Source of the DNA: Bradymonadia bacterium
GTDB taxonomy: Bacteria; Myxococcota_A; Bradymonadia; REDH01
DNA: 50,699 nt
Direction of reading: 5' to 3'
Assembly (NCBI GenBank): GCA_047610025.1
Contig: JBLFZA010000002.1
Span: 1 to 50,699, forward strand
Of this stretch, positions 651 through 33,690 are shown piece after piece (the first letter of the stretch is position 1; every line of letters begins with the position of its first letter). Below the pieces are notes generated by a model that ran no database searches, was not told the DNA's origin, and was given only the letters and a program-made list of their open reading frames with translations. Position numbers and translations under genes: made by a program.

Positions 651-1031
651 ATGTTTTCGTTTCAGTTCTACAAAGTCGTTCACATCCTAGGCGTGCTGCT
701 CATGTTTATGGCGCTCGGCGGCGCCGCATTTCACAGCGCGACGGGCGGCGACAAGACAACAAACCCGCTTCGCAAGATGGTGGCCTCGACTCATGGCACC
801 GCACTGCTGGTGATCTTCATCGCAGGATTCGGCGCGGCTGGCGTCGGTGGCTTCATGGGCGGGGAGAACGGGTTCCCATTGTGGATCGCGGCGAAGATCG
901 TTCTCTGGCTGGTTTTTGGCGCGCTGATTGTGCCGCTCAACAAGGCCAAAGGCTCAGGCAAGATACTCTGGTACGCGATGCCCGTGCTCGGCGCGATCAG
1001 CGCGTGGCTGGCGATCTATAAGCCCTTCTAA
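651..1031 (+). CDS. Small 4-TM membrane protein (SirB2/DUF-like)
   Basis: 126 aa with four hydrophobic segments; motifs [10 protein letters not shown] and C-terminal KPF. Confidence 0.75.
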
Positions 1032-1118
1032 GAGCAAGAGCGCTGCACAGCGCGTTCCCAGTCGCTGAACGCAGCACTCCATGCGAGACTCTTCACGCAA
1101 CCGCGGCGGTGCTTCGCG

Positions 1119-3197: not shown

Positions 3198-3336
3198 GGG
3201 GACTCGGGGGAGACGGATAGACCTGCTCTTTGCTATCGTCCCAATCCTACGCTGCCTTGAGCCCCAGCGCCGATCGCTGAGCTCACGGCACGCATCACGC
3301 TCGCTCCCTTCAAAGCGGATTGGATGCCCGCAATGG

Positions 3337-5240: not shown

Positions 5241-6224
5241 ATGTCGACGTACTTGGTGACCGGAGCGACGGGCTTTCTCGGACGGGCTCTCGTCAAGTGT
5301 TTGCTGGCGCAGGGCCACGGCGTGCGAGGCTTCGCGCGGAGCGTCGCCGCTGGCTCTGCCGATGTGGAGTGGCGCTCCGGATCCGTACTCGACGAACACG
5401 CGGTGGCCGATGCCTGCGCTGGCGTCGACGGCGTGTTCCACCTTGCGGGACAGGTGGAACACACCCGCCGGCAAGGCTACGCGGCAATGCGTGCCCTCAA
5501 CGTGAGAGGCACCCTCAACGTGCTGCGCGCGACAGACGCGCCTATCGTCGCGGCGAGTACCTCCGGTGTTGTGGCCGTCAGCGCTCACCCCGGTCGTATC
5601 GCCGATGACCAGTCGCCCTACGCCAGCCGGCTGACGATCGATTGGCCTTACTACGCCACGAAGATCGAAGCGGAACGGGCCGCGCGCGACTGGGCCGGTT
5701 CACGCGGAAGAGACGTCACGTTCATTCGGCCGTCGCTGCTTCTTGGCCCTGACGATACGGGCGGAGAATCGACCGCGCTGGTTCATCGCCTATTGGGTTC
5801 TAGGGTCCCCGTAGCGCCAAGTGGCGGGCTGAGTTGGGTGGACGTGCGAGACGTTGCTCTCGTGATGCGCGAGGCCATGCTGAAGACTGACGGAGTGACA
5901 ACGGCCATCGTCACCACGACGAACGAGACCTTTATCGCCTTCTTCGAACGTGTGGCGGCGCTCTCAGGCGTGCCCGCTCCTACTCGACGCCTGCCCTATT
6001 GGCTCGCTCACACCGGAGCCCGACTTGTGACCGCTGTCGGTGGCCTCGTCGGACGGGCCGATCCAGCAATGGACCCGGTAGTCGTCGAGATGACGCGTCA
6101 CTACTGGTACGCAGACGCCGGTGTCGCGTCTGCGTCGTTCGGCTTTCAGCCGCGGCCGGCGGATGACACCCTTCGAGAAACGATCGACTGGCTGAGAGAA
6201 CATGCCGACATTCCAAGAATTTGA
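5241..6224 (+). CDS. NAD-dependent epimerase/dehydratase (extended SDR, HpnA/dihydroflavonol reductase-like)
   Basis: VTGATGFLG, VFHLAG, NVRGT, YxxxK (YYATK), VDVRDVA. Confidence 0.9.
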   Translation: MSTYLVTGATGFLGRALVKCLLAQGHGVRGFARSVAAGSADVEWRSGSVLDEHAVADACAGVDGVFHLAGQVEHTRRQGYAAMRALNVRGTLNVLRATDAPIVAASTSGVVAVSAHPGRIADDQSPYASRLTIDWPYYATKIEAERAARDWAGSRGRDVTFIRPSLLLGPDDTGGESTALVHRLLGSRVPVAPSGGLSWVDVRDVALVMREAMLKTDGVTTAIVTTTNETFIAFFERVAALSGVPAPTRRLPYWLAHTGARLVTAVGGLVGRADPAMDPVVVEMTRHYWYADAGVASASFGFQPRPADDTLRETIDWLREHADIPRI

Positions 6225-10800: not shown

Positions 10801-11895
10801 CTAGGCGTTACCCTGCGCTTCGGCCTGCGCTTCGCTGATGCGAACGTACTCTTGCTGATACGTGAGCAAAGTGTCCTCGACGACACCGAGATTCTGAGCG
10901 TTCATGGTGTTGTCGAGCGACGACGCGATGCTGCGCATCTGAATATGAAGCTCGTAGAGTCGGTCGGAGATATCCGCCAGCATGCCGACATCGCGCGTCT
11001 TGCGATCCTGTCCTGCGAAGTTCGCGGCGTACAACTCGAACTCCTTGTTCGCAGACAGGCCAAGGGCATCGATGAGCTCGAAGACGCTCGCCCGGGAGCG
11101 CGCATCGTCCACCGCGTCCGCCTCTGTGCGGTAGGCGCCCAGACGGTCGCGCACGATGTTGAGATTGCCACTGTTCGTCTCAAGGGCCTCCCCGTCCGCG
11201 ATCGCGCGCTCCATCTGCTGCTCGATGATGGCGAGCTGAGAGTTGATCCGCGTCAGCAGCTGCGGCCGGCGCGACGTCCGCGCCTGGCCTGCAAAATTAC
11301 GCCGATAGTTCGTGAACTGGTCGTTGGCGGTATTGGCGAGCATGCCCGCCTTCTCCTCGTCGGAGAGCGTGCCCTTCGCCGCCACGATCGCCTCGTGCTC
11401 GCTGACGTAGGTCTCGATCGAGCGGTCGACAGTGCCGAGATGTTCTTCGGCGAGTGGGCCACCGGGCGTGCTGAGCAGACTGCGCAGCTCAGACGACACG
11501 GCGCGCAGCTCTTCGATGATCTCATCGAGCAGCGCAAGATCGCGGGTGGAACGGCCCTTGCCCGCGAAGTGACGTCGGTAGAGGCCGAACGCGAGGTTCG
11601 CTCGTGCGCCAAGTCGGGCGGCCGTCACCAGTGTCGGGCCCTGACCCTGTACTTCGACGATCTTCGCGCGTTCGCTTTTGTACAGGTCCACGCGCTCCTT
11701 CGCGGCCGTGACGACGACTCCGAAGCTCGCGCCCAGCTTGCTCGCCTCCACGCGCACCTTCTCCGCTTCCGCGGCAATCTGCTCGATCTCCGTAACGCTA
11801 CGAGTCGCTCGCGACTTCCCGGCGAAACGGAATGTGTAGCGGGCGTGCACCTCATCAAGGCGGCGCTGCAGAAGGGCAATCGTCGTATCGGTCAT
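10801..11895 (-). CDS. Hypothetical alpha-helical protein with four ~90-aa internal repeats
   Basis: The motif Y-x3-FAG-x2-R-x2-R occurs with FAG at aa 24, 110, 201 and 293; no signal peptide. Confidence 0.8.
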   Translation of the reverse strand: MTDTTIALLQRRLDEVHARYTFRFAGKSRATRSVTEIEQIAAEAEKVRVEASKLGASFGVVVTAAKERVDLYKSERAKIVEVQGQGPTLVTAARLGARANLAFGLYRRHFAGKGRSTRDLALLDEIIEELRAVSSELRSLLSTPGGPLAEEHLGTVDRSIETYVSEHEAIVAAKGTLSDEEKAGMLANTANDQFTNYRRNFAGQARTSRRPQLLTRINSQLAIIEQQMERAIADGEALETNSGNLNIVRDRLGAYRTEADAVDDARSRASVFELIDALGLSANKEFELYAANFAGQDRKTRDVGMLADISDRLYELHIQMRSIASSLDNTMNAQNLGVVEDTLLTYQQEYVRISEAQAEAQGNA

Positions 11896-12068
11896 CGTGC
11901 TCTGGGGCAGGCTAACGAGAATGGAGGGCGCAACCTACCCGCGTTTCTGCTCGGCGCAACTGCTGGGGCCAGTTTTGCGGCGGAGAAGTGGCGAGCTGTG
12001 GAGGCTCACTGGGAGACCCGGAGTGGCGCTGGGGTAGTCGGCGCGGGCTGCCTGGGGCTGGCTCGCAG

Positions 12069-13733
12069 CTAGGGCGCGATGAACAGCGTGCCCTGCTGGC
12101 CAGACGTCGCGTCGCTCTGAGGGCCAGTAGCCCCACGTCCGCCGCGAATGTCGATCGCTGCGATGTTCGACAAGGACACCGTCGCGCGGATCTTCACGCG
12201 GCCGCCGCCGCCGCCGCCGCCGCCGTTCCCGATGCATTGGTCGTTCGGTTCGTTGCCTGCGCCAACCGGGCGGTAAGTCGAGCCGGTACCGCCTCGCCCA
12301 CCGGCAACCCAAATCTGAGCAGAACGCGTGAGGCGTAGGCGCTCGCCGTCGAGCGCGATCCCTCCCCCTGAGCCGCCGGCAGCGCCATCGACGATTCCGA
12401 GTTCTGCACCGTCTCGCGCCGCTTCGCCATCTGCCCCGGTCGCGAAAATCCCACCATCGATGAGGATGTCTGGCGCGGACAATGAGATGCACCCGCCACC
12501 GCGACCGCCCGCGGACGCGAAGCCCACCAGGTCGTCGCACGCCGCCCCATCGAACCCTGGTTGCTCGATGGTGAAGCCACCGCCGCCGCTGCCCATGCGC
12601 ACTTCGAGGCCGTCTGGCTGCCCGTGCGTGGCGCCCCCAAGAAGCCCAGGCCCAGCGCCGCCGCGACCCCCGTAGCCGCCGCCTGCTGGCCCCGTGTTGC
12701 GCAAGCTCGGGCCAAATCCGGCTTCGACCCCGCGGCCTGCAGCGCAGTCCCCGGAGCCATTGGCGGTGATGCGGCTGCCAACCAACACTTCGATGATCCT
12801 GGCGGTGATGACCAAGCATCCCGGCCCATCTGGCGTGCACGCGTTCGTCGGCTCGCCATCGAAGGAATCCACCACAATCTCTCCACCATTGCGCACAATC
12901 ACGTGGTCGTAGAGCTGTTGACCAGACAATGAAATCGACTCGTCGTCCACGATCAGATCGGGTGGACAGACCTCGTCATTGAGTTCGTTGCAGTTGTTAT
13001 CGATGTCGTCGCAGACCTCGATCGCGCCAGGGTTGATGGCAGCGCTCGACTCGTCGCAATCGAGGCCTAGGCAATCCAAGCCAACGCCGTAGCCATCACC
13101 GTCAGGATCGAAGCAGCCGGCGCAGACGTCGAGCAGAGGCAGGCACTGCTGCACGCGTTCCCCTTCGGTCGTGCGCACGCTGTCGCAACTCAGCCCGTCC
13201 GGGCAGCCGCCCTCGCACCCGAGCACGCAGAATTGTCCATCCGTTAGGACTGCGCAGCGGTCGGCCAACCGACCGCACTGGTTACTATCTTCGCACTCCG
13301 TGCACACCACGGCCGGAAGCCGACACTCTTCAGAGCACGTGTCCGGTTGCAGTAACGGGTCACACTGTTCATCGCTATCCAGCACGCCGTCACCGCACCC
13401 CGCTGGCTCGCAATCTGTTCGGCACGCATCGGGCGCCTCATCCGAGTTCAGCTCGCCCTCGTCGCACCCCTCATCGACACCGACCACGCCGTCGCCGCAG
13501 ACCGATGGCGCAACGTCCATGACAGCATCGATCCCGATATCTACGGATGCGTCCGACTCCAAGGCATCCAGAACGTCAGCATCCTCCGCCAGCTCCGGCT
13601 CGCCAAAAAATCCCTCGCCGAGCCCACTTCTCGCACAGCCCGATGCGACGAATGACGCGCCGGATAAGAGGAGCGCGAACAGTCTCACCGTCCCCCAGAA
13701 GGAAGGCGATGAGGCGATTGAGTTTCGGGACAT
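12069..13733 (-). CDS. Cys-rich / Gly-rich surface lipoprotein (myxobacterial CGDG repeats, MopE-like metal-binding repeat, Gly-rich domain)
   Basis: Lipobox ASGC; two CGDGV repeats; DCDESSAAINPGAIEVCDDIDNNCN; GGGYGGRGG...GSGGG...GGGGGGR region. Start at ATG 13733 is uncertain. Confidence 0.8.
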   Translation of the reverse strand: MSRNSIASSPSFWGTVRLFALLLSGASFVASGCARSGLGEGFFGEPELAEDADVLDALESDASVDIGIDAVMDVAPSVCGDGVVGVDEGCDEGELNSDEAPDACRTDCEPAGCGDGVLDSDEQCDPLLQPDTCSEECRLPAVVCTECEDSNQCGRLADRCAVLTDGQFCVLGCEGGCPDGLSCDSVRTTEGERVQQCLPLLDVCAGCFDPDGDGYGVGLDCLGLDCDESSAAINPGAIEVCDDIDNNCNELNDEVCPPDLIVDDESISLSGQQLYDHVIVRNGGEIVVDSFDGEPTNACTPDGPGCLVITARIIEVLVGSRITANGSGDCAAGRGVEAGFGPSLRNTGPAGGGYGGRGGAGPGLLGGATHGQPDGLEVRMGSGGGGFTIEQPGFDGAACDDLVGFASAGGRGGGCISLSAPDILIDGGIFATGADGEAARDGAELGIVDGAAGGSGGGIALDGERLRLTRSAQIWVAGGRGGTGSTYRPVGAGNEPNDQCIGNGGGGGGGGRVKIRATVSLSNIAAIDIRGGRGATGPQSDATSGQQGTLFIAP

Positions 13734-13976
13734 CGAGAGTGAGGCGAGAGGTCGAGCGCGCTGTGAGCATAGCGAGTTCCCGCCTAGACGCAACGCACAC
13801 GCCTGTGGGCAGGCGTGTGCAGGGCGCGTTTCGACTAACCAGCTCCCGAGAGTGCGACATAGGATGCCAAGGCTGACCCCGCGCCGCTCGACAACCCTTG
13901 CACCGGCGGGACTTGGCCGTAGGCTAAGCCGCCATGGATAAACGCTCGACACGAGCCCGCCTCCCCGACGTTCCTC

Positions 13977-14960
13977 ATGACTCAGTCCCTGACACTCGAC
14001 AGCATGAGGCAAGCCCTCGGTACCGCTCTGATTCACTCGGCGCTCGGAGGCTTCGCGCGTGCGCAGTCGCTCCGTCCGAGGAATCGGCCTTCGAAGTGGG
14101 GCGTGGAGAGAATCCGCAGAGTTGAATATGGCGGCGCCGGACAACCAGCGCAAACGCTTGACGTCTATCGCCCTCTTGAGTCGGAGGGCCTGCTGCCCGT
14201 CGTGCTCTATGTGCACGGTGGCGGGTTCTCAATTCTCTCAAAAGAGTCCCATTTCCAGTTCGGACTGCGCTTCGCTCAGGCGGGCGCGTTGGTGTTCAAC
14301 ATCGACTATCGGCTAGCGCCCAAACACCCGTATCCTGCAGGGTTCGAGGATGTGTGCGCCGCATGGCTGTGGGTGCTCGACAACGCCGAGCGCTATGGTG
14401 GCGACCCGTCCAGAATCGTGCTCGCCGGCGAATCGGCAGGCGGCGGGCTGATCACCTCGCTCGCCCTGGCGACGTCGGCCTCGTTCGACAACGCGTGGGC
14501 GACGGAGGTCTTCCAGCGCGATGCTCAGCCGGTGGGCGTGATCCCGGCATGTCCGATGTCTCAGGTGAGCGAACCAGAGCGCTATGGCGCCCGCCGTCCG
14601 CTACCGACCTGGATCGCGGATCGTATTGACGTCATCGGCAAGCGCTACCTGCGAGATGCGGCGGAGCTCTCGTCGATCGACTTGGCCAACCCGCTCCTGT
14701 GGCTGGAGTCCAACGCGACCCTGGCCCGCGAGCTGCCGCCATTCATGATTCCGTGTGGCAGCCGAGACGCGATACGGAGTGACTCCGACGACCTACACGC
14801 AGCCCTTGTCGCGCGCGGGCAGCGAAGTTCACTGCATCTCTATGCTGGGGAACCCCACGCGTTCCACGCGTTCCCCGGTCGACCTCACACAGCGACCTGC
14901 TGGTCAGATATGCTCTCGTTTCTCCGAACGCACACGACCCTCGCTCAGCGCGCCGCATGA
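13977..14960 (+). CDS. Alpha/beta hydrolase, HSL-family esterase/lipase
   Basis: HGGGF oxyanion motif, DYRLAP, GESAGG nucleophile elbow, C-terminal HAF. Confidence 0.92.
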   Translation: MTQSLTLDSMRQALGTALIHSALGGFARAQSLRPRNRPSKWGVERIRRVEYGGAGQPAQTLDVYRPLESEGLLPVVLYVHGGGFSILSKESHFQFGLRFAQAGALVFNIDYRLAPKHPYPAGFEDVCAAWLWVLDNAERYGGDPSRIVLAGESAGGGLITSLALATSASFDNAWATEVFQRDAQPVGVIPACPMSQVSEPERYGARRPLPTWIADRIDVIGKRYLRDAAELSSIDLANPLLWLESNATLARELPPFMIPCGSRDAIRSDSDDLHAALVARGQRSSLHLYAGEPHAFHAFPGRPHTATCWSDMLSFLRTHTTLAQRAA

Positions 14961-19340: not shown

Positions 19341-22013
19341 ATGGCTACCGGCCCTGGCGGAATTTCTGAGATGCGACCGGCCTCTAGTGGTCCCCATACG
19401 GGGATGACCGCAGGGGACGGATGGCTATGCACCGCGCTTGTGGGACGCCGTGGGCAATGTCTGCATTACCTCGCGCGCGACGAGCGCGGAAAAATCGCCG
19501 ACCTCGTCGTGCTTGCCCCTTCAGACGACGTCGCAATCAGCGAACGCGGGCTGCTCGATGAAATCGCAATGGCGGGCAGGCTACCCATCAACGTGTCGCC
19601 TGCGCTCATCGACCACGGTAAGCTGCAGGACGGCACGCCCTACTTTCTCCATAAGCGTCTTGTCGGATGTTGGCTTTCGGATTTGTTTGGCGCCTCCGGA
19701 GAACCGCTGGATCTCCCGACGGGTCTCGATGTCGCGATTCAACTCGCAGACGCACTCGACGTCTGCCACCGACGCGACCTTGTTCACCGGTGGGTCAAGC
19801 CGACGACACTCTTCATCACGCGGGACGGCGAAGTGCGCTTGCCCCCCGTAGGAGACGCGAGTGTTGTTGCCTCAGCGTGGGATGACACAGCGTTCACAGC
19901 CCCGGAGCTGCTGAGGAACGACGAATCTGCGACGGGGCCCGGCGTCGATGTGTATTCAGTCGGCGCTACACTCTTCATGGTGCTCTCCGGTGTACCCCCG
20001 CTCTCAGCAGACCCAAACGCGCCCGAGACCTATGATGATCCGGCTCGTTCGGTCGCGTTCGCTGCCCCTTGGCTACCCCTTGGACTCATCGAGACGATCG
20101 ATCGAGCATTGCGTGGCGCACCCACACAGCGATTCAAGTCCGCCGGTGAGCTGGCGGCCGCTCTGCGCGAGCTGCTCGATGAAGTGGACGATGCGGTCGA
20201 TGCACCGCAAGACCCGCATGGGACTCGCCGCTCACAGCTGGGCGCGCGCGTTCGAGACACCGCGGAGGGAGTGGACCCGTTCGAGCGCGAGCACAAGTCC
20301 ATGGCCATGTCCGCAGTGTTTCAGCATCTGGCCAGCGCGTGGTCGAGCAGCATGCCCGGCGCAGAGCTCGGCAGCCGACGGGAGAACCTCGACCAAGCGT
20401 GGGCATACGTCGCGCCACTGCTAGACGAGTACACGGAAGGCGTGACCGTGGAGGTTCGCCCCTACGGACTGTACCGGCGCGGCCTACCGATTTGGCAGCC
20501 CGACCGCTCGCTTCGCACAATCACCAACGCCCTGTTTTCGGCCGGTTTCCGCACCGTCACGCTGCGACCGAAGCTCTCCCCAGAGGAATTCGAGCGATTC
20601 GTTGGATACCTGCAGGCGGTCGGAGAGCACGGCGCGAGCAGTCCGCACAGCGTTGCGCTCGCCTTCGACGACGCTAGGTTTGCCGGTGTGCAGGCGGATA
20701 TTCGCGTTAGCCTAGACCGCACGCGAGTGTTGCGAGATCCCACCGTTGAGCAGGAGCTTGAAGAGCTGCGAAGCGAAGTGGACGAAGAACTCCAAGACGA
20801 CCGTTGGTGTCGCGGCCAAGTAGCGGCCCGACTGGTGCGCATTCGCGCTCTCGACACCCGCGAGTCTTGGAGCGCCAACGATTCGCGTTCTCCATTGATT
20901 CGGGGGGCTCGCTCCGCCTACGCGCAGCTTGGTCCGCCCCCGGGCATTGGAATCACATCGCGGTCCCTTGCCGACGTCAAGACCTGCGTCGACAGCGACG
21001 ACTTCTTAGACCGCCAGGGCGTCACGGCGGCGGCTGCGCTACTTCAAGGGTCGACCGAAGGCGGAAGCGCATCCGTTGAAATGTCGTGGCGCGCAGCGGT
21101 ACACAATACGACGGATGATGACGAAGCGCTCGCGTACGTGCTGGACTGCATCGACGCGATTCCGGGCGCGCTGGCACCCGGGTTGCTGAGTCGGCTTTTG
21201 GACCCGGTAACGAGCCGGCGGCTCTTGGTCGCGCTGACCAATACGTACGACGGACGGCTCGTCGAGCAGCGCATAAAGACGCTTGTGGCCGCTCTGTCTC
21301 CGGGGGCGTTCGACGCGATGCTAACCGCCTACGAGCAGTGCTTTGAGACCAGCTTGGGAGCCGAACTCCGGCAGCACCTGCAGCGACAGGTTTACCCAGA
21401 GCAGATCATGGTCGCGCAGCGAATCGCCTCGATGGCTGCGCCCGTAGCCCTCGACATCCTCGATATGTGTCGTTCGAAGACGTCCGACCTGTCACGAATC
21501 TCGCTCGGGGCGCTCCAGCATCAGGATACCGGCGCCAAGGTGCACGCCGTGCGGGACAGCTTCGAGGAGCATCCCGCTGAGGTCCTGCCTCACGTCATCT
21601 CGCTGTTGGACTGTGAGGACGCGAGCGTTCGCTCGAGTGCGCTTGAGGTCTTCGAACAACACCGCCCGGCGAGCGCGTCGCGAGCGATTTACGCACGACT
21701 GCAGCCTACAGATGCCGTCGCGCGCTCCCCCGGCGAGCACAAACGCCTCCTCATGTTGCTCTTTGAAATCTCGCCTGCTGAGGGAGAGCGTCACGCGAAC
21801 GCTCTGGTCCGTACCCACGGCGCTCTGCCCGACGCCGAGCTTGATGCGCGCAGACGAGTGGCCGTTCAGCTACTGGGCTCGCATGCGTCCTCCCCAGAAG
21901 CACTAGAAGCTGCCGAACTGGCGAGCGGACGATGGTGGTGGAATACGCCGGAGCTTCGGGACGCCGCACGCTCCGCTGTGGCGGCCATCAAGCGACGGGG
22001 GGGAGTCTCATGA
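19341..22013 (+). CDS. Ser/Thr pseudokinase with C-terminal HEAT-like repeats
   Basis: The kinase fold is recognisable (APE, DVYSVGATLF, R of subdomain XI), but VAIK is ADLV, HRD is HRW and DFG is PVG. HEAT-like LLDCEDASVRSSALEVF near the C-terminus. Confidence 0.85.
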   Translation: MATGPGGISEMRPASSGPHTGMTAGDGWLCTALVGRRGQCLHYLARDERGKIADLVVLAPSDDVAISERGLLDEIAMAGRLPINVSPALIDHGKLQDGTPYFLHKRLVGCWLSDLFGASGEPLDLPTGLDVAIQLADALDVCHRRDLVHRWVKPTTLFITRDGEVRLPPVGDASVVASAWDDTAFTAPELLRNDESATGPGVDVYSVGATLFMVLSGVPPLSADPNAPETYDDPARSVAFAAPWLPLGLIETIDRALRGAPTQRFKSAGELAAALRELLDEVDDAVDAPQDPHGTRRSQLGARVRDTAEGVDPFEREHKSMAMSAVFQHLASAWSSSMPGAELGSRRENLDQAWAYVAPLLDEYTEGVTVEVRPYGLYRRGLPIWQPDRSLRTITNALFSAGFRTVTLRPKLSPEEFERFVGYLQAVGEHGASSPHSVALAFDDARFAGVQADIRVSLDRTRVLRDPTVEQELEELRSEVDEELQDDRWCRGQVAARLVRIRALDTRESWSANDSRSPLIRGARSAYAQLGPPPGIGITSRSLADVKTCVDSDDFLDRQGVTAAAALLQGSTEGGSASVEMSWRAAVHNTTDDDEALAYVLDCIDAIPGALAPGLLSRLLDPVTSRRLLVALTNTYDGRLVEQRIKTLVAALSPGAFDAMLTAYEQCFETSLGAELRQHLQRQVYPEQIMVAQRIASMAAPVALDILDMCRSKTSDLSRISLGALQHQDTGAKVHAVRDSFEEHPAEVLPHVISLLDCEDASVRSSALEVFEQHRPASASRAIYARLQPTDAVARSPGEHKRLLMLLFEISPAEGERHANALVRTHGALPDAELDARRRVAVQLLGSHASSPEALEAAELASGRWWWNTPELRDAARSAVAAIKRRGGVS

Positions 22014-24184
22014 TCCCCGAGCCACTCGTTCTCTCGCGACTCGTAACCTCTGTCACGCGCCTGCTTTGGTGCGCATTCGCAGGAGGAACCGACCAGGCGC
22101 TGCAGCTCGAGCTGTCGAAGACGGAAAGTGCGGCGAAAGACCTGACCGCCACTTCGATGCCGAGCGCGACCATTCTGTATTGCGAGCGCGGCATCTACGT
22201 CAACGAGGCGCTTTGGGACGCCGACGAAGCCGCCTACAGGCTCGCCCTGCGCATCGGAAGTCGACTTCGGAGGAGCGGCTTTAACCTCGTCTCGATTGGC
22301 TCCGATGTCACAGTGGACGACCTGCGCCTCATGCTGCACGCGCTCAATGGCGACGCCACGGAGGCCGTGCAGGATTCGACGCGCGCGACGTACTCTGCGG
22401 CGGCGCGGCTGCGCTCGGTGGCTCATTCCCTCGTTGACGACGACCATCGCCCGACAGCCCACTCGCGCGGAAACGCATCCTACTTGTATGCAAGCGCGGT
22501 CGTGCAATGTCGCACGGCGCTGCGCGCGCTCAATCGTGATGCGCAGTTCGAAGGCGCTGCGCTTGAAGTTGTGGGACATCGCATCGTGCAGTTGGTTCTG
22601 GAGACGCCCGATACAGCTCTGGCGTTGACTCGCATACAAATCGATGAGGTCGCTACTCGAGCTGTCAATACAGCGCTGCTGGCGGTGAGCGCTTGCCGGC
22701 AAGTCACCACCGATGTTGTCTCGTTGCGACGCGTTGCCCTCGCGTCGCTCATGCTGGAGAGCGGTGTCGCGCGCGTCGCCGCGACATACCGCGGCGGTGA
22801 GCAGCCGGACCTTCATCGGCTCTCTGACGAGCAGGCCGGGCAGGTGCCCGCCGCGACGGCAGCCGCGGTCGCGTTACTCGGTTGGCTGGAACCAAAGTTA
22901 GTGGGTCGCGCTGTTTGTGCGTTCGAGGCTGCGTGGCGTATTGTCTTTGGCCACACGGATGACATCTATCGCGATGGAGAGCCGCCTCGATTTGAGTCGC
23001 TGCTGATTTGGGCGGCCTGGCGCTTCAATCTCATTGTGAGCAGTGTGTCGATCGATGGTCGGCGTTGCACACCGGATGCCGCAGCAGCCGCGCTGAACAG
23101 CGCGACCAACAATTCGACGGAGCGGCGCGCTGTCCTGCTCCTTCTGCGAGCGCTTGGGTTGGTCCCCCGAGGCACAGTGGTGCGCTTGGCCAGTGGCGCG
23201 CTCGGGCTCGTCGTGGCGAACGCCGTCAGCGCGGAGCACTTCGGCCTTCCCGTCGTCGAACTCTATGAAACCGCGAACGCCGAACCCGTAAACGACGTCG
23301 TTCTGGACTTCTCCAGACCCGATGAGACACTGGCAGAGTGGGGGGGCATCGCTGCCGTGCTCCGCTCGGCCGTCGCTCCCGAGAGCAAACTAGAGTCGTT
23401 GCGTGCGTTGGACGCGTCGGACGCCGCGGCGGCTCCGGCGTTCATCGTCGCGAGGCGCCCCGCCTACACGCCTCTCGACCTCCACGCGGTAACTGATGCA
23501 GGGCCTAGCAAGCAGAAAGCACACGACGAAGCATCGGCGATTGCCGTGCGCGAACGAGCAGAAGACGACCTCGACACAATCTTGGCGAGCTACTTCGATT
23601 CACCGAGCGCGTCTCGCCCCGTCTTGTCCCAAGACTCGGTCAAACGAGCAGAGCACCGCCTCATCGGACGTCGAGAGGCAAGCGACGCCACTGAGCAATT
23701 GACGGACCTGCTCTCGGACTACCTCGATCAGACGGGCGCCCAAACTGACCCTTCGGACGATTCTCAATCGGGAGTCACGACGAATCCACACCCTGACGCG
23801 CTCAACTCTGTCGGCCCATCCGGCATGCGAGATACGCTGCCCGAAATGGGCGTCTCGGCGGCGGAGATTCTTCACGCTCACTTATCTTCCGTGTCGCAGG
23901 CTGGCGCTGCCGATGATTTGATGGACACTGGCGAGCTCCCCAAAGCGCACTCGAACGAATCAGAATTAACGCAAGACGTACCAGCGCTCAGTCGAGAAAT
24001 CGCCGACCAGCGCCTTCTCGATGCCGCGAGAGAGTCGGCAAACGCGAAGCGAGCCGACTCCGGAGCAGAGTCGAACCGCCACCTCGACCCTGCCCAGGCA
24101 CCGGCACCGGCACAGACGCCCGCTAACAGAGACTCATCGGCGCAGGCCAACAACGAAGCAGCTCCCCCCATCGAAGAGGAATAG
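22010..24184 (+). CDS. Degenerate HD-GYP-like protein with long acidic disordered tail
   Basis: RAVNTALLAV aligns to HD-GYP HSxNVA; LMLESG stands where LLHDIG is expected; C-terminal LGLVPRGTVVRLASGALGLVV...PVV is typical of HD-GYP tails. ATGA overlap with the upstream gene. Confidence 0.7.
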   Translation: MIPEPLVLSRLVTSVTRLLWCAFAGGTDQALQLELSKTESAAKDLTATSMPSATILYCERGIYVNEALWDADEAAYRLALRIGSRLRRSGFNLVSIGSDVTVDDLRLMLHALNGDATEAVQDSTRATYSAAARLRSVAHSLVDDDHRPTAHSRGNASYLYASAVVQCRTALRALNRDAQFEGAALEVVGHRIVQLVLETPDTALALTRIQIDEVATRAVNTALLAVSACRQVTTDVVSLRRVALASLMLESGVARVAATYRGGEQPDLHRLSDEQAGQVPAATAAAVALLGWLEPKLVGRAVCAFEAAWRIVFGHTDDIYRDGEPPRFESLLIWAAWRFNLIVSSVSIDGRRCTPDAAAAALNSATNNSTERRAVLLLLRALGLVPRGTVVRLASGALGLVVANAVSAEHFGLPVVELYETANAEPVNDVVLDFSRPDETLAEWGGIAAVLRSAVAPESKLESLRALDASDAAAAPAFIVARRPAYTPLDLHAVTDAGPSKQKAHDEASAIAVRERAEDDLDTILASYFDSPSASRPVLSQDSVKRAEHRLIGRREASDATEQLTDLLSDYLDQTGAQTDPSDDSQSGVTTNPHPDALNSVGPSGMRDTLPEMGVSAAEILHAHLSSVSQAGAADDLMDTGELPKAHSNESELTQDVPALSREIADQRLLDAARESANAKRADSGAESNRHLDPAQAPAPAQTPANRDSSAQANNEAAPPIEEE

Positions 24185-24186
24185 CA

Positions 24187-24951
24187 GTGTTTGGATTACG
24201 CATCATCAGAGCTCCGAAACGTGGCCTCGTCTTTCGCCTTGGGAAGCCCAACCGTGTGCTCGGGCCTGGCGTGCACTGGGTAAGCCCGATTATCGAGCGA
24301 CTGCTACAGGTGTCGACGTCTCTGGTCACGGCCGAGGTCGACATCGACGTCATCACCCGCGGCGGCACACCCACAACAATCAAGATCGGCTACACGGCGC
24401 GAGTGACCGATGTAGAAGCGGCGCTTATCAACGTCAGCAATGCGTTCGCCACACTGCGGGCAAACGTCATCGCCGTCGTCTCGGGCGCTGCCAACAGCTA
24501 CACCATCGATGAGCTCGCACAGCGCAAGACCGAGATCGCTGCAGCGGCGGAACAGGAGCTGCTCGATCTGAGCAATCTTAACGGATGGGGACTTGGAGGG
24601 ATGCAAATCGCCATCGGCGACCCCTCGATGACCGACGAACTGAAGCGCCTGCTGATGCGCGAGGAAGCCGTGCGCCGCGAGAATGCAGCGAATCTGCAGC
24701 GCGCGCGAAACCACATGCGCGTCGGCGAGCAGCTGCTCCAGGTCGCCACAATGCTGGAGGACTCGCCATTTGCGCGAGAGCTGCTACGGCTGCAAATGCT
24801 GTCCGATATGGGTTCGGGTGGGAAGATCATCGTGGTCGACAGCCAGTCCATGTCCGGGCAGGCGGCGTTGAAGCAAGAGGCCACCGACGAAATGTCGCGG
24901 GCCAAACATCAGCCAACCCTCAACGCATTGCCGCCGGCCCCTGCCCAGTAG
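24187..24951 (+). CDS. SPFH / band-7 (stomatin-like) protein
   Basis: GLVFRLGK...GPGVHWVSPIIE; coiled coil; ELLRLQML tail. GTG start 2 nt after the upstream stop. Confidence 0.88.
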   Translation: MFGLRIIRAPKRGLVFRLGKPNRVLGPGVHWVSPIIERLLQVSTSLVTAEVDIDVITRGGTPTTIKIGYTARVTDVEAALINVSNAFATLRANVIAVVSGAANSYTIDELAQRKTEIAAAAEQELLDLSNLNGWGLGGMQIAIGDPSMTDELKRLLMREEAVRRENAANLQRARNHMRVGEQLLQVATMLEDSPFARELLRLQMLSDMGSGGKIIVVDSQSMSGQAALKQEATDEMSRAKHQPTLNALPPAPAQ

Positions 24952-31046: not shown

Positions 31047-31661
31047 ATGGAAGTGCCAACCAAGGCCCAGGAAATTCTAACTTACTGGTACGGACCACGC
31101 GATTCGCCGGAGTACCCGCGCAAGCAGTTCGGAGTTTGGTTCGGGCACGACCCGGCTGTTGATGTCGATCTGACGGAGCGATTCGGAGAGACGCTTCGAG
31201 ATGCGGCGGCGGCTCTGGACGATGGCAGCGCATGGACGGTGTCTCGTGAAGGCCGGCTCGCCAGAATCCTACTCTTCGACCAGCTGTCTCGGAACATCTA
31301 TCGGGGCAAAGCGCAGATGTACGGGATGGACGTGGAGGCGCTTGATCTTGCCATCGAAGGCATCTGGCTTGGAGAGGACAGCGACGCCTTAGCGATGGAG
31401 GCCATGTTCTTGTACATGCCGCTCATGCACGCCGAGTCGATCGCGATTCAGCGCTGGTGCGTGCGCCTCTTCGCGGCCCTGCTCGAGAAGGTACGAGGTA
31501 GCGCCGATGAGAAGACGATCGCCGGGAATGTCGCGTACGCGATCCAGCATCGGGACATCGTCGAGAAGTTCGGTCGATTTCCGCACCGCAATATCCTGTT
31601 GCAACGCGAAACGACCGCCGCTGAAGCGCGCTTCTTGATGACACCAGGTTCGTCGTTCTAG
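31047..31661 (+). CDS. DUF924 family protein
   Basis: LARILLFDQLSRNIYRG, FLYMPLMHAE, HRDIVEKFGRFPHRN. Confidence 0.92.
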   Translation: MEVPTKAQEILTYWYGPRDSPEYPRKQFGVWFGHDPAVDVDLTERFGETLRDAAAALDDGSAWTVSREGRLARILLFDQLSRNIYRGKAQMYGMDVEALDLAIEGIWLGEDSDALAMEAMFLYMPLMHAESIAIQRWCVRLFAALLEKVRGSADEKTIAGNVAYAIQHRDIVEKFGRFPHRNILLQRETTAAEARFLMTPGSSF

Positions 31662-31714
31662 GCGATGAAGGACCCGCCGTCGCGGGCTCTCCGCAGCGGT
31701 CGGCGCCGAAGGGC

Positions 31715-31753
31715 TGTCTCATTTCGCACAGCTGGGGTGTCTCAATGGAGACA
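31715..31753. promoter_or_regulatory. Tandem TGT-N10-ACA palindromes, candidate transcription-factor (sigma54 activator) binding sites
   Basis: TGTCTCATTTCGCACA (31715-31730) and TGTCTCAATGGAGACA (31738-31753); the starts are 23 bp apart. Confidence 0.5.
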
Positions 31754-31801
31754 GGGGGCCGGCGAGCGGAATCTAGCGTGGTTGTGTCGCGGGGATCGGT
31801 A

Positions 31802-31859
31802 CAAAAACTACGACAGCCCGTTCCATGCTCCCCCCCCGAGCAGCTCTGAAACGGGCCGT
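31802..31859 (-). terminator. Intrinsic terminator-like hairpin of candidate sRNA A
   Basis: Stem ACGGCCCGTTTCA / TGGAACGGGCTGT followed by CGTAGTTTTT. Confidence 0.6.
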
Positions 31860-31931
31860 TACGTCGAACTCCGCATCCCCCGACACGGAGAGGCTTGTTG
31901 GCGCGGTAAAACCGCTAGAAGCCGTCGACTA
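31802..31931 (-). ncRNA. Candidate sigma54-driven sRNA A (~130 nt, three stem-loops, G-rich loops)
   Basis: Lies downstream of the sigma54 motif. SL1 is 31892-31923. SL2 is a 9-bp stem with a GGGG loop (31869-31890). SL3 is 13+5 bp with a G7 loop, followed by U5. Four G-U pairs form only on the minus strand. Confidence 0.6.
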
Positions 31932-31941
31932 CCAACACTAC

Positions 31942-31957
31942 TGCGAGCACCGTGCCA
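31942..31957 (-). promoter_or_regulatory. Sigma54 (-24/-12) promoter motif
   Basis: Minus-strand TGGCACGGTGCTCGCA matches TGGCACG-N4-TTGCA with exact GG/GC spacing and one mismatch. Confidence 0.7.
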
Positions 31958-32224
31958 CCATTCAGTGGACTGGATCGTAAAGGCAGATTCGTCGGGTCTT
32001 CCTCAGTCGTCATCGTGGCATCTCCGCACGACGCGGGGGCCCAGCGTCATGTGGCCGTTACGTCCATGATGTGTTGGAGGTGACCACACCGGAGGTCGTC
32101 GCGCGTCTGCCGCCCTACCTCTCCAGAGTCTCTGACATCATGCGCGAATTGTACGCGGCAACAACTGCCGTAGGGCAGTTTGCGCCGGCGCCAATCGCCG
32201 AGCCCGCCGAGCAATCGGACGGAC

Positions 32225-32269
32225 AAAAAGGCAGAACCCGGCCGCGATGAATGATCGTGGCCGGGTCCT
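32225..32269 (-). terminator. Intrinsic terminator of candidate sRNA B
   Basis: AGGACCCGGCC-a-CGAT-cattc-ATCG-c-GGCCGGGTTCT followed by GCCTTTTT on the minus strand. Confidence 0.65.
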
Positions 32270-32512
32270 TGTTCGCTGAGAGTGGTTCCGCTAGCTGCCA
32301 ATCCCCCCCAGGGTCGGCGATAGCGATGCAGGTTGCCCTGCGTACGTACGGGCTTTTGCTCTTGTGGACGTACCCCCCAGTCCGTCCACTGTCGCTCTAG
32401 CTCGTTGTTTTGGAACTCGTTTAAAATCCCCCCTTTTAGTCGTACTCCATTCTCTCTCAGTCGCCTCGTGCCCTCTCCCCCCGGTGAGCGCATTCGGCAT
32501 CGTTGCGAACAA
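32225..32512 (-). ncRNA. Candidate sigma54-driven sRNA B (~290 nt, four G-loop hairpins plus terminator)
   Basis: G6/G6/G6/G7 runs (plus-strand C runs 32477-82, 32428-33, 32373-78, 32303-09) each sit at a hairpin apex. Bounded by a sigma54 motif and a terminator. Confidence 0.55.
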
Positions 32513-32522
32513 CCCTGCACTT

Positions 32523-32538
32523 TGCGACAGTTGTGCCA
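32523..32538 (-). promoter_or_regulatory. Sigma54 (-24/-12) promoter motif
   Basis: Minus-strand TGGCACAACTGTCGCA with exact spacing; it has the same TCGCA -12 variant as the promoter at 31942. Confidence 0.65.
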
Positions 32539-32790
32539 AGATCGGCATGACCAAAGATCTGGCCGCGATCTATCTCTCGCGACGGGTCGACTTAAGAGTT
32601 TACGAATCCCCAAGAGAGCGGCGACATCTGCAAATGCTGCGCACGTCGCCCTGTCGCTTATCTTTCGCTACGCTCGCCACGCATGGCCACTCACCACCGA
32701 CCCACGACGCCCGTGTCTTCGACCTACGCCTACCCATCGGCACTCACTACCCGGCATTCCTTTCCTAGTGACCGCGGCCACGCTGCACAC

Positions 32791-33690
32791 GTGACGGGAT
32801 TTGCGTCCTCCGCGATCGCGGCTTTGGCGCTGGTCGTGGCATCCCTGTTGATGGTTCCAAGCGCTACGGCTGGCCCGTGGGTCGCCGAACCCGGCCACGG
32901 GTATCTCCAACTCAGCGGGACATCCTTCCGCTCCGACGACGGCGTACGCGGCTCAACGGCTGGCGGCTTTCGATACAGCAAGACGACGCTCTCGCTGTAC
33001 TCCGAGCTCGGCCTCGTGGACGGCCTACAGTTCACCTTCGAGTTGCCCTTTGCGCTGGCCCGCAACGAACAGGTCGGCGGAGACGACGTGTACTTCGCAC
33101 GAGAGATTGGCGACGTACGACTCGCGCTCGATGGCCGAGTCACGAGGCGAGTCCCGCTCACCTTCGGTGTCGAAGCCCGACTTCCTGGCTACAGGGACCC
33201 GTCTCAGCAGTTGGGTGCCACTGGGGTGGATGACGATCAGTTCTTACTGATCCCGAGCAGCTGGTTTCCTGCCATCGGAGACAACTCGATCGACGTCATT
33301 CCTCGTGTTCAGATCGGCCACGGGTTCGCGCGAGTCCCGATGTGGGTGCAGGCGTCGGTTGGATACAGGTTCCGATCCTGTCAACGACACAACTTCGGAG
33401 CGGGATGCCGGGATCTCCGGGACAGCCTCAGCATCAACGCGGGCGCCGGCGTCTTCGTTGTCCAACGGCTGGTCTATACCGAGCTTTACGTGTCCGGCGA
33501 ACTGATCACCCAGCCAGAGTCGGACCGTACGATCGCGACGCCTCAGTTCATGTACGTGCAGGGCAAGGTCTCGTCGCTTCTTGGGTTCGACTCTCCGTTC
33601 GCGGTGACCGCCGGTGTCGGTGGCATCCCCCTGGGACAAGATACCCAAGGTGGCTGGGACGTGACCGGCGCAATCAGTCTCAAGTTCTAG
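32791..33690 (+). CDS. Putative outer-membrane beta-barrel protein
   Basis: Signal peptide ending ATA-GPW; alternating beta-strand pattern; C-terminal ISLKF. Start (GTG 32791) uncertain. Confidence 0.7.
   Translation: MTGFASSAIAALALVVASLLMVPSATAGPWVAEPGHGYLQLSGTSFRSDDGVRGSTAGGFRYSKTTLSLYSELGLVDGLQFTFELPFALARNEQVGGDDVYFAREIGDVRLALDGRVTRRVPLTFGVEARLPGYRDPSQQLGATGVDDDQFLLIPSSWFPAIGDNSIDVIPRVQIGHGFARVPMWVQASVGYRFRSCQRHNFGAGCRDLRDSLSINAGAGVFVVQRLVYTELYVSGELITQPESDRTIATPQFMYVQGKVSSLLGFDSPFAVTAGVGGIPLGQDTQGGWDVTGAISLKF

What the first reader, a model, noticed from the sequence alone, without database searches (positions are those of the whole stretch)
31802..32538. Two tandem sigma54-driven candidate sRNAs whose hairpins display poly-G loops
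Seen in sequence: the gene-free gap between DUF924 and the beta-barrel gene holds two minus-strand units with the same layout. Each has a -24/-12 motif (TGGCACGGTGCTCGCA at 31942-57; TGGCACAACTGTCGCA at 32523-38), then hairpins with G5-G8 runs at their tips (two in unit A, four in unit B), then a GC stem with U5. The stems differ in sequence but the G-loop recurs six times. Promoters, U-tracts and the G-U pairs of unit A all agree on the minus strand. Established knowledge: sigma54 promoters have this fixed spacing, and sRNAs with a repeated loop motif (CsrB/RsmZ) act as protein sponges. Inference: this may be an undescribed family of G-loop RNAs. They could titrate a G-binding protein, or pair loop-to-loop with C-rich targets such as other sRNAs or mRNA leaders.
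Basis: partly seen in the sequence, partly recalled or inferred. Interest (0 to 1): 0.85.

Follow-up and report, generated by a model that had tools for sequence, protein, structure and literature searches.

The report
Sigma54-driven RNAs with all-G hairpin loops
Two neighbouring non-coding genes, plus a third and larger one elsewhere in the same genome, appear to make RNAs built from hairpins tipped with runs of G, which may soak up a still unknown partner in a lineage where the usual CsrA system was not found.

Summary
The roughly 1 kb non-coding gap between DUF924 and the next gene carries two minus-strand units. Each has a TGGCAC-N5-TCGCA sigma54-type motif, then hairpins whose tips are G5-G8 runs, then a long GC stem followed by U5.

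New here: the same genome has a third, larger locus on contig C72. It has a sigma54 motif and about 11 G-tipped hairpins, five of them 40-nt tandem repeats. It lies next to a histidine kinase and an NtrC-type sigma54 activator.

Genome-wide, only 6.2% of G5-9 runs cap a hairpin, against 13 of 16 in these three loci. There are only four same-strand clusters of such hairpins in the genome, and three of them are these loci.

Strand evidence is strong for C72 (minus z -3.2, plus z -0.2; 44 G.U pairs), good for unit A and neutral for unit B.

No Rfam family matches. CsrA was found in 0 of 13 genomes of the family, against 24 of 28 in sister families.

No homologue or look-alike cluster was found in relatives, and no RNA data exist, so transcription and conservation remain unshown.

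Best reading: lineage-restricted, sigma54-controlled multivalent decoy RNAs with an unknown ligand that is not CsrA.

The parts
32523..32538 (-). sigma54-type -24/-12 motif of unit B (TGGCAC-N5-TCGCA); predicted start near 32512
   Evidence: The motif is enriched about 2-fold in putative intergenic DNA of this genome. Function as a promoter is inferred.
32225..32512 (-). Candidate RNA B, about 288 nt
   Evidence: Fold -122.5 kcal/mol, z -4.7. No coding signal. No Rfam hit. Both ends are inferred.
32468..32491 (-). Hairpin B1, G6 run 32482-32477 at the tip (cuc.a.cc-GGGG-GG.a.gag)
   Evidence: Local fold. Passes the strict criterion.
32423..32438 (-). Hairpin B2, G6 run 32433-32428 flanked by five A-U pairs; weak
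   Evidence: Seen in sequence. Not formed in the minimum-energy folds.
32364..32389 (-). Hairpin B3, G6 run 32378-32373 at the tip of a 10-pair stem
32293..32325 (-). Hairpin B4, G7 run 32309-32303 at the tip
32225..32268 (-). Terminator-like element of unit B: GC stem 32268-32234, U5 at 32229-32225
   Evidence: Not canonical, because U5 starts 4 nt after the stem; the scan found none.
31942..31957 (-). sigma54-type -24/-12 motif of unit A (TGGCAC-N5-TCGCA); predicted start near 31931
   Evidence: Function as a promoter is inferred.
31803..31931 (-). Candidate RNA A, about 129 nt
   Evidence: Fold -62.4 kcal/mol on minus against -47.0 on plus. 5 of 43 pairs are G.U.
31869..31890 (-). Hairpin A1, 9 pairs, GGGG loop from the G5 run 31881-31877
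31803..31859 (-). Long terminal stem of unit A (31859-31813), capped by hairpin A2 with the G8 run 31837-31830, then U5 at 31807-31803
   Evidence: The terminator role is inferred; U5 starts 5 nt after the stem.

Best explanation
The gap holds two stand-alone non-coding RNA genes on the minus strand, RNA A (about 129 nt) and RNA B (about 288 nt). Together with a third RNA of about 650 nt on contig C72, they form a small set of sigma54-dependent RNAs in this genome.

The functional unit is a hairpin whose apex is a run of Gs. Typically this is YY-GGGG-GG(A): a GGGG loop closed by the run's last Gs pairing with two preceding pyrimidines. In about half the cases a purine.A 1x1 mismatch lies below it.

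By analogy with other repeated-motif RNAs, each RNA would present 2, 3-4 or about 11 copies of this module to one ligand and titrate it. Enhancer-binding response regulators would switch on their synthesis; for the C72 RNA this is most likely the adjacent kinase and NtrC-type pair. I favour an RNA-binding protein other than CsrA as the ligand.

Shown: the sequence features, their non-randomness, the absence of coding signal, and the strand asymmetry.
Inferred: transcription, sigma54 dependence, the RNA ends, and the decoy mechanism.
For: 1. The module is specific.
- 296 of 4754 G5-9 runs genome-wide (6.2%) cap a hairpin, against 13 of 16 in the three loci.
- There are only 4 same-strand clusters (gaps under 150 nt) in the genome: unit A (2 hairpins), unit B (3), C72 (8), and one unrelated pair on C114.
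- From one search's numbers I reckon by hand about 1.5 chance pairs and about 0.007 chance triples.

2. The link to the sigma54 motif is specific.
- 9 of the 296 hairpins have a sigma54-like motif within 260 nt upstream, and 8 of those lie in these loci.
- The ninth lies inside an ORF.
- RpoN is present, and 26 PF00158 hits occur in the genome.

3. The third locus.
- G000:C72, minus strand, about 12092 to about 11450, with the motif TGGCATGGTCCATGCT.
- 10 G5-6 runs plus one GGAGGG variant, including 4.9 tandem copies of a 40-nt unit.
- It lies in a gene-free gap next to a HisKA/HATPase kinase and a receiver/Sigma54_activat/HTH_8 regulator.

4. Strand.
- C72 minus strand: -280.7 kcal/mol, z -3.21, 0 of 20 shuffles as good. 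Plus strand: -184.7, z -0.22, 10 of 20.
- 44 of 233 pairs are G.U.
- The two stem positions that vary between repeat copies change A-U to G.U and G.U to G-C. Pairing is therefore kept only on the minus strand (read).
- Unit A: -62.4 on minus against -47.0 on plus.

5. The three RNAs share only 7-9 nt G-run words. The motif is therefore not inherited through a recent duplication, except within the tandem array.

6. Non-coding: flat GC by codon position and no Pfam hit.

7. Copy numbers of 2, 4 and 11 and a tandem amplification fit titration better than a single-seed antisense RNA. This step is inference.
Against: - No RNA run holds the stretch, so nothing shows that any of the three is transcribed.
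- No homologue or look-alike cluster was found in the following searches. No covariation test across species was therefore possible.
  - 40 relatives by BLAST.
  - 13 genomes of the order/family by pattern and synteny.
  - 113 genomes of the class, where hits equalled the reversed-pattern control.
  - About 0.7 Mb of fetched loci.
- The eight DNA holders are one near-clonal population. In the four runs laid, only 2 SNPs were seen.
- No candidate ligand was found. CsrA is missing.
- Unit B folds equally well on both strands.
- The -12 element is TCGC rather than the canonical TTGC in units A and B.
- No upstream activator site is shared by the three promoters.
- No activator gene lies on the window's contig.
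- U tracts are set 4-5 nt off the stems.
- The C72 RNA has no recognisable 3' end.
Confidence: 0.38

Rival explanations
1. RNA-RNA decoy or antisense regulators. The G runs pair with C-rich or CU-rich single strands. These could be the seed regions of other small RNAs (a sponge, as described for the G-rich part of S. aureus RsaI), C tracts just 5' of Shine-Dalgarno sites in mRNAs, or the anti-SD of 16S rRNA.
For: - There is a precedent: a G-rich sequence of RsaI binds CU-rich tracts of RsaD, RsaG, RsaH and RsaE (passage read in PMC8383071). C-rich seeds that target G-rich SDs are common (passage read in PMC12205990).
- Run length varies from 5 to 8, and one repeat copy has GGAGGG. This fits 'G-richness' better than a fixed protein site.
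- In 1474 crudely called genes, C5+ runs peak at -30 to -21 from the start codon, with 23 in that bin against 4 to 14 in the others.
- 40 of 4754 C5-9 runs (8.4 per 1000) are followed by an SD, a start codon and an ORF of at least 100 aa. Eight control words give 4.3-6.7 per 1000.
Against: - In 15 of 16 local folds only 3-4 Gs are unpaired, which is short for a kissing contact.
- The enrichment of C tracts before SDs is modest (1.3-1.9 fold) and rests on home-made gene calls.
- No cluster of C-tipped hairpins, that is no candidate partner RNA, was found in non-coding DNA other than the antisense of these same loci.
- Eleven sites in one RNA would be unusual for bacterial RNA sponges (recalled, not from a call).
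Confidence: 0.25
2. CsrB/RsmZ-type sponge for a CsrA-family protein. The GGA at the 3' end of most runs would be the binding motif.
For: - In the sequences listed, 12 of 16 G runs are followed by A, so they end in GGA, and the variant copy reads GGAGGGA.
- The RNAs have a multi-hairpin layout with variable copy number.
- Synthesis under a two-component system is analogous to GacA controlling RsmY/Z (recalled).
Against: - PF02599 was found in 0 of 13 genomes of the family, G000 included, five of them at least 93% complete. It was found in 24 of 28 genomes of other families of the class.
- No Csr/Rsm Rfam model scores even at E up to 10.
- The GGA is predicted to be partly paired.
- The promoter type is sigma54, and no sigma70-like site was found.
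Confidence: 0.05
3. Not independent RNA genes. The hairpins could be DNA-level or incidental features, such as protein-binding sites, remnants of repeats or composition effects. Alternatively they could be parts of very long leaders, or antisense transcripts of the convergent genes.
For: - There is no expression or conservation evidence.
- Unit B is strand-neutral.
- G-run clusters elsewhere turned out to be trivial. Those in G006 were coding and compositional. The four runs on C47 are Pro-rich codons of a sigma54-driven ATPase gene on the other strand.
- The sigma54 motifs of A and B deviate at -12.
Against: - The stems differ while the apical motif and the pairing are kept in 13 of 16 cases, against a 6.2% background.
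- The stretch is single-copy in the genome.
- The strong G.U-dependent strand asymmetry at C72 indicates RNA-level structure.
- All three loci pair the motif with a sigma54 site in the right orientation.
- All three point at the 3' end of a convergent gene, so no protein gene is served.
Confidence: 0.2

Closest known systems
CsrB/CsrC/RsmX/RsmY/RsmZ sponge RNAs (Csr/Rsm systems)
   Same: Non-coding RNAs made of many hairpins with different stems and one repeated purine-rich apical motif. Copy number varies between paralogs. Synthesis is presumably under a two-component regulator. Proposed action is titration.
   Different: The motif is a G5-8 run forming a GGGG loop, not ANGGA. The promoter type is sigma54. 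No Rfam match. CsrA was not found in the whole family.
Pxr sRNA of Myxococcus (with pxrR/nla19)
   Same: A predicted sigma54 promoter with an upstream enhancer region, and a sigma54 activator gene immediately upstream (passages read in PMC5684412). This resembles the C72 locus. Pxr paralogs are the subject of PMC5568312, of which I saw only the listing and the start of the abstract.
   Different: Pxr is described as three stem-loops, with function in the SL1 loop. 'G-rich' and 'GGGG' each occur 0 times in that paper. I had no Pxr sequence to compare, and no homology is shown.
Qrr1-5 (LuxO/sigma54) and GlmY/GlmZ (GlrR/sigma54)
   Same: Small RNAs transcribed from sigma54 promoters under NtrC-type response regulators, present as several paralogs. 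One qrr gene lies next to luxO, and GlmY acts as a protein decoy (recalled knowledge; Qrr and LuxO appear in abstracts listed).
   Different: There is no sequence or Rfam similarity. Those RNAs have no repeated G-loop modules.
RsaI of Staphylococcus aureus (G-rich tract)
   Same: A G-rich sequence in a small RNA binds CU-rich tracts of other small RNAs (PMC8383071, passage read).
   Different: RsaI has a single G-rich domain described in that passage, not 2-11 hairpin tips. The phylum and promoter differ, and there is no homology.

Membership tests
CsrB/Rsm-type sponge RNA | Cognate CsrA/RsmA protein encoded in the genome | tested here: not met
   PF02599: 0 hits in G000 (86% complete) and 0 of the 12 other genomes of the family, against 24 of 28 in other families of the class.
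CsrB/Rsm-type sponge RNA | Match to a curated Csr/Rsm covariance model | tested here: not met
   Rfam 15 gave no hit at gathering score in the window. No Csr/Rsm hit appeared at E up to 10 in 31650-32700 or in the C72 locus.
CsrB/Rsm-type sponge RNA | Repeated GGA in unpaired apical loops | tested here: inconclusive
   12 of 16 runs end in GGA. In the predicted folds the last Gs pair with preceding pyrimidines and only GGGG is unpaired.
sigma54-dependent small RNA (functional class: Qrr, GlmY/Z, Pxr) | -24 GG / -12 GC promoter with fixed spacing, and rpoN in the genome | tested here: met
   The motif is present at all three loci. RpoN lies on C370. This is met at the sequence level only; activity was not tested.
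sigma54-dependent small RNA (functional class: Qrr, GlmY/Z, Pxr) | Cognate enhancer-binding activator and its upstream binding site | tested here: inconclusive
   An NtrC-type regulator and a kinase flank the C72 RNA. None lies on the window's contig. Each promoter has its own upstream palindrome, or none, and no site is shared.
sigma54-dependent small RNA (functional class: Qrr, GlmY/Z, Pxr) | Transcript with a 5' end about 12 nt downstream of the -12 GC, dependent on rpoN | not testable with these tools
   No RNA run holds the stretch.
Qrr (RF00378) / GlmY / GlmZ | Match to the Rfam model | tested here: not met
   No such hit at E up to 10. The accession number is recalled.
Pxr | Conserved SL1/SL2 sequence and the 8-bp SL3 stem | not tested
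The papers' passages do not mention G-rich loops.

The most novel reading that the evidence does not exclude
A Csr-like global post-transcriptional switch that works without CsrA. NtrC-type regulators and sigma54 would drive a set of sponge RNAs (2, 4 and about 11 modules). Their G-tetraloop hairpins would titrate an undiscovered RNA-binding regulator in a lineage where CsrA was not found. In the tandem 40-nt array the arms can also pair between neighbouring units, which would leave the G6 tracts single-stranded. The large RNA might therefore toggle between G-loop hairpins and an exposed G-tract or G-quadruplex state.
Probability: 0.25. Interest if true: 0.85.

Novelty: new variant of a known kind. 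Interest (0 to 1): 0.62.

Why it matters
Repeated-motif sponge RNAs are known almost only for CsrA/RsmA. Here the same architecture appears with another motif and another promoter class, in a bacterial family in which CsrA was not found. If the RNAs are made, they point to an unknown RNA-binding regulator or to a new RNA-RNA sponge logic. They also give a concrete handle for fishing it out: three loci, a defined module and an adjacent two-component system. If they are not made, the case is a useful warning that motif-plus-hairpin patterns can arise in one genome without conservation.

Tried and rejected
- **Homologues by DNA.** 40 relatives gave only a 66-nt hit (E 6.4e-4) in G007, inside coding-looking sequence. 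I treat it as chance.
- **Synteny.** The flanks of DUF924 homologues (5 of 12 family genomes) and of the C72 activator's best homologues (9 of 12) hold no G-hairpin clusters. The G runs in G006 are composition and coding.
- **Pattern scans.**
  - G6 x3 in the order (13 genomes): poly-G junk.
  - sigma54 motif plus two G5 runs in the class (113 genomes): hits roughly equal to the reversed-pattern control, and only G000 stands out at 6 against 0.
  - A relaxed pattern in 401 genomes of the phylum: 219 genomes hit, at control level, so uninformative.
- **Metagenome scan** with the C72 activator: only relatives at 44% identity or less.
- **Cluster re-scan** of all fetched loci except L160-L279, about 1.41 Mb counting both strands: only G000's own loci.
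- **Sequencing runs.** No RNA holder is listed. Eight DNA holders are ice metagenomes. Laid contigs of X5, X7, X8 and X9 gave 2 SNPs (31941 C>T, 32223 A>C) and no covariation. The small share in X9 was short unlike pieces plus one identical 84-nt piece.
- **Shared activator site** among the three promoters: none found.
- **Partner RNAs with C-tipped hairpins**: no clusters.
- **C47:2409-2644**, four G6-7 runs next to an activator gene: rejected. They are Pro-rich codons of a 491-aa ATPase ORF on the other strand.
- **C130**, a hairpin 28 nt after a sigma54-like word: it lies inside an ORF.
- **Taxonomy.** The Atlas look-up of the DAHP synthase named Cyanobacteriota, Pseudomonadota and Myxococcota clusters at equal score, so the phylum is not settled.
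- **Literature.**
  - 'GGGG tetraloop': 0 papers.
  - 'G-rich loops' + 'small RNA' + 'bacteria': 0 papers.
  - Of the 92 papers holding two of 'sRNA', 'G-rich loop' and 'sigma-54', none of the 15 listed describes such RNAs.
  - Supplements were not opened.
Full report
**1. Observation**

On the minus strand of the window I read two sigma54-type words: TGGCACGGTGCTCGCA at 31957-31942 and TGGCACAACTGTCGCA at 32538-32523. The pattern TGGCAYN5WYGCW occurs 3 times in the 50.7 kb window against 0.43 expected. None of 100 shuffles reached 3, and two of the three matches are these.

Downstream of each word lie G runs: 31881-77 (G5) and 31837-30 (G8) in unit A, and 32482-77, 32433-28, 32378-73 (G6 each) and 32309-03 (G7) in unit B. 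Runs of six or more occur at 0.21 per kb in this 63% GC genome. Here five lie in 653 nt, all on one strand.

Both units fold well:
- Unit A: -62.4 kcal/mol, z -4.0.
- Unit B: -122.5 kcal/mol, z -4.7.

Five of the six runs sit at a hairpin apex. The run at 32433-28 does not in the minimum-energy folds.

Each unit ends with a long GC stem (31859-31813 and 32268-32234) and a U5 tract. The U tract starts 4-5 nt after the stem, so the consensus terminator scan reports nothing.

The gap is non-coding. DUF924 ends at 31661. The ORFs inside the gap have flat GC by codon position, unlike the flanking genes, and no Pfam hit. The next gene (32683-33690) has no Pfam hit. Its translation shows a signal-peptide-like stretch and a C-terminal Phe by eye, so 'beta-barrel' is plausible but untested.

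**2. A third locus**

A scan of the whole MAG (4.5 Mb, 422 contigs, 86% complete) for hairpins with G-run loops found a much larger example on contig C72, minus strand.
- The word TGGCATGGTCCATGCT lies at 12118-12103.
- About 650 nt follow, with ten G5-6 runs and one GGAGGG variant, each at a hairpin tip.
- These include 4.9 tandem copies of a 40-nt unit at 94% identity.
- The locus fills a gene-free gap. On one side is a convergent 946-aa ORF without Pfam hit. On the other are a HisKA/HATPase kinase and a receiver/Sigma54_activat/HTH_8 response regulator.
- ORFs inside this gap are also flat in GC by codon position.

RpoN is present. The genome has 26 PF00158 hits, none on the window's contig.

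**3. Is the module more than chance?**

I folded 16 nt either side of every G5-9 run on both strands. Of 4754 runs, 296 (6.2%) form a hairpin of at least 5 pairs and -9 kcal/mol or better whose loop lies wholly inside the run. In the three loci 13 of 16 do: A 2 of 2, B 3 of 4, C72 8 of 10.

Same-strand clusters with gaps under 150 nt number four in the genome: unit A (2), unit B (3), C72 (8) and one unrelated pair on C114. From the density I reckon by hand about 1.5 chance pairs and about 0.007 chance triples. Unit A alone would therefore not be significant. It is convincing only together with unit B, which lies 580 nt away and has the same promoter word.

Of the 296 hairpins, nine have a sigma54-like word within 260 nt upstream. 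Eight of these belong to the three loci, and the ninth lies inside an ORF. The loose sigma54 word is twice as dense in putative intergenic DNA as in coding DNA (100.6 against 51.0 per Mb). Words with TCGC at -12 recur among the 66 intergenic hits listed.

The three RNAs share nothing but 7-9 nt G-run words. The stretch is single-copy in the genome.

**4. Anatomy of the module**

In 15 of 16 local folds the unpaired apex is 3-4 Gs. The last two or three Gs of the run pair with two or three pyrimidines just before it, and in 15 of 16 cases the base before the run is C or T.

By my reading of the listed folds, in about half the hairpins a 1x1 purine.A or G.G mismatch follows before the outer stem. 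Also by my count, the base after the run is A in 12 of 16.

The stems differ in sequence throughout, except within the tandem copies.

**5. Strand**

| Locus | Minus strand | Plus strand |
|---|---|---|
| C72 RNA | -280.7 kcal/mol, z -3.21, 0 of 20 shuffles as good | -184.7 kcal/mol, z -0.22, 10 of 20 |
| Unit A | -62.4 kcal/mol, z -4.0 | -47.0 kcal/mol, z -3.6 |
| Unit B | -122.5 kcal/mol, z -4.7 | -120.2 kcal/mol, z -6.2 |

- In the C72 RNA, 44 of 233 pairs are G.U and would be C.A on the other strand.
- Between the repeat copies the two variable stem positions change A-U to G.U and G.U to G-C. Pairing is therefore kept only on the minus strand (read).
- Unit B is neutral on energy. For it, the strand rests on the promoter word and the U tract alone.
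- All three loci point at the 3' end of a convergent gene, so none can be the leader of a nearby protein gene.

**6. Known families**

Rfam 15 gives nothing at gathering score in the window. In E-value mode the best hit in 31650-32700 is CrfA, at 20 bits against a cut-off of 38 (E 0.44), over the terminator region. Nothing at all is found for the C72 locus.

The CsrB/Rsm analogy fails its key test. CsrA (PF02599) was found in 0 of 13 genomes of the family, including five that are at least 93% complete. It was found in 24 of 28 genomes of the other families of the class.

The closest analogues in layout are sigma54-dependent small RNAs next to their activators.
- Pxr has a predicted sigma54 promoter and enhancer region with pxrR immediately upstream (passages of PMC5684412). 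That paper never mentions G-rich loops.
- Qrr and GlmY are recalled knowledge.
- For G-rich function, the precedent is the G-rich sequence of RsaI, which binds CU-rich tracts of other small RNAs (passage of PMC8383071).

Text searches for 'GGGG tetraloop' and for 'G-rich loops' with 'small RNA' and 'bacteria' found no paper.

**7. Conservation and expression**

None could be shown.
- BLAST of the gap against 40 relatives gave one chance-level 66-nt hit.
- The genus holds only this genome. The family is distant: DUF924 is at most 50% identical and the activator at most 57%.
- Flanks of those homologues, pattern scans of the order, class and phylum, a metagenome scan with the activator, and a pattern scan of 185,579 species' genomes yielded no cluster of different-stem G-tipped hairpins behind a sigma54 word.
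- Two different-stem look-alikes in unrelated phyla (L262, L277) were seen and not pursued.
- The stretch is held by eight ice-metagenome DNA runs and by no RNA run.
- Laid contigs from four runs show one near-clonal population with two SNPs, both outside the hairpins.

**8. Mechanism**

The design is one apical motif on varied stems, in 2, 3-4 and about 11 copies, amplified in tandem in the largest RNA, and placed under enhancer-dependent promoters. This is the design of a titrating RNA.

I therefore put a multivalent decoy first (0.38 for the whole chain). I lean to a protein ligand, because only about four Gs are predicted to be exposed and because eleven sites would be unusual for RNA sponges.

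The RNA-RNA alternative (0.25) has weak leads.
- C5+ runs peak just 5' of Shine-Dalgarno sites in crude gene calls, with 23 in the -30 to -21 bin against 4 to 14 elsewhere.
- 8.4 per 1000 C runs precede an SD and an ORF of at least 100 aa, against 4.3-6.7 for control words.
- However, no partner RNA with C-rich tips was found.

CsrA titration is nearly excluded (0.05). That the loci are not RNA genes at all remains possible (0.2) while no transcript is seen.

**9. Verdict**

- The function is inferred, not shown.
- It is a new variant of the repeated-motif regulatory RNA kind, so far confined to one uncultured lineage.

Noticed in passing
G000:C72 (L004) 11440-12118, minus strand: A third and largest G-loop RNA candidate. 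It has a sigma54 word at 12118-12103 and 10 G5-6 runs plus one GGAGGG variant at hairpin tips. A 40-nt tandem array of 4.9 copies lies at 11476-11672. Neighbours are a kinase (12258-13220, plus strand) and an NtrC-type regulator (13197-14579, minus strand).
   Followed up: yes
family f1 (13 genomes) against the rest of the class: CsrA (PF02599) was not found in any genome of the window's family, but was found in 24 of 28 genomes of the sister families. This suggests lineage-wide loss of CsrA.
   Followed up: partly
G000:C47 (L310) 687-3847: An NtrC-type activator gene (2090-687, minus strand) lies divergent from a 491-aa ATPase ORF with a Walker A motif (2372-3847, plus strand). A sigma54 word (TGGCACAGCCGTTGC, 2290-2304) precedes the ATPase ORF. 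Its N-terminal Pro-rich stretch explains four C6-7 runs at 2409-2644.
   Followed up: yes
window 32620-32650 and 32027-32051: Palindromes lie upstream of the two promoters. GGCGAC-N19-GTCGCC lies at about -138 to -108 of unit B. CATGACGC-N9-GCGTCGTG lies at about -119 of unit A. They may be activator binding sites but are not similar to each other. A different dyad (TGCACCATTTGG-N4-CCAATATGTGCCA) lies about 170-190 nt upstream of the C72 RNA.
   Followed up: partly
window 21172-21187, plus strand: A third sigma54-type word in the window (TGGCACCCGGGTTGCT). Its context was not examined.
   Followed up: no
genome-wide, -30 to -21 from crude start codons: C5-9 tracts sit 2-8 nt 5' of Shine-Dalgarno sequences in about 40 ORFs of at least 100 aa, for example the ORFs at window 23177-24184 and 24187-24951 (plus strand). 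The enrichment is modest. They are possible targets of G-rich RNAs.
   Followed up: partly
L262 minus strand 5769-5855 (Microthrixaceae MAG); L277 plus strand 3532-3723 (Akkermansiaceae MAG): Intergenic groups of three or four different-stem hairpins with GGGGG(G)A tips in unrelated phyla. One looks like a terminator with a U tract. No sigma54 word precedes them.
   Followed up: no
window 31941 and 32223: These are the only two variants among the four ice and seawater metagenome runs laid. 31941 C>T lies one base after the -12 element of unit A. 32223 A>C lies just past the U5 of unit B. The hairpins are invariant in this near-clonal population.
   Followed up: yes
L038 (G006:C18) about 1030-1332, minus strand: In the closest homologue of the C72 activator (57% identity), a perfect sigma54 word (TGGCACGAGCATTGCA) diverges from the activator gene. 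It precedes a small ORF of about 85 aa rather than an RNA with G loops.
   Followed up: partly
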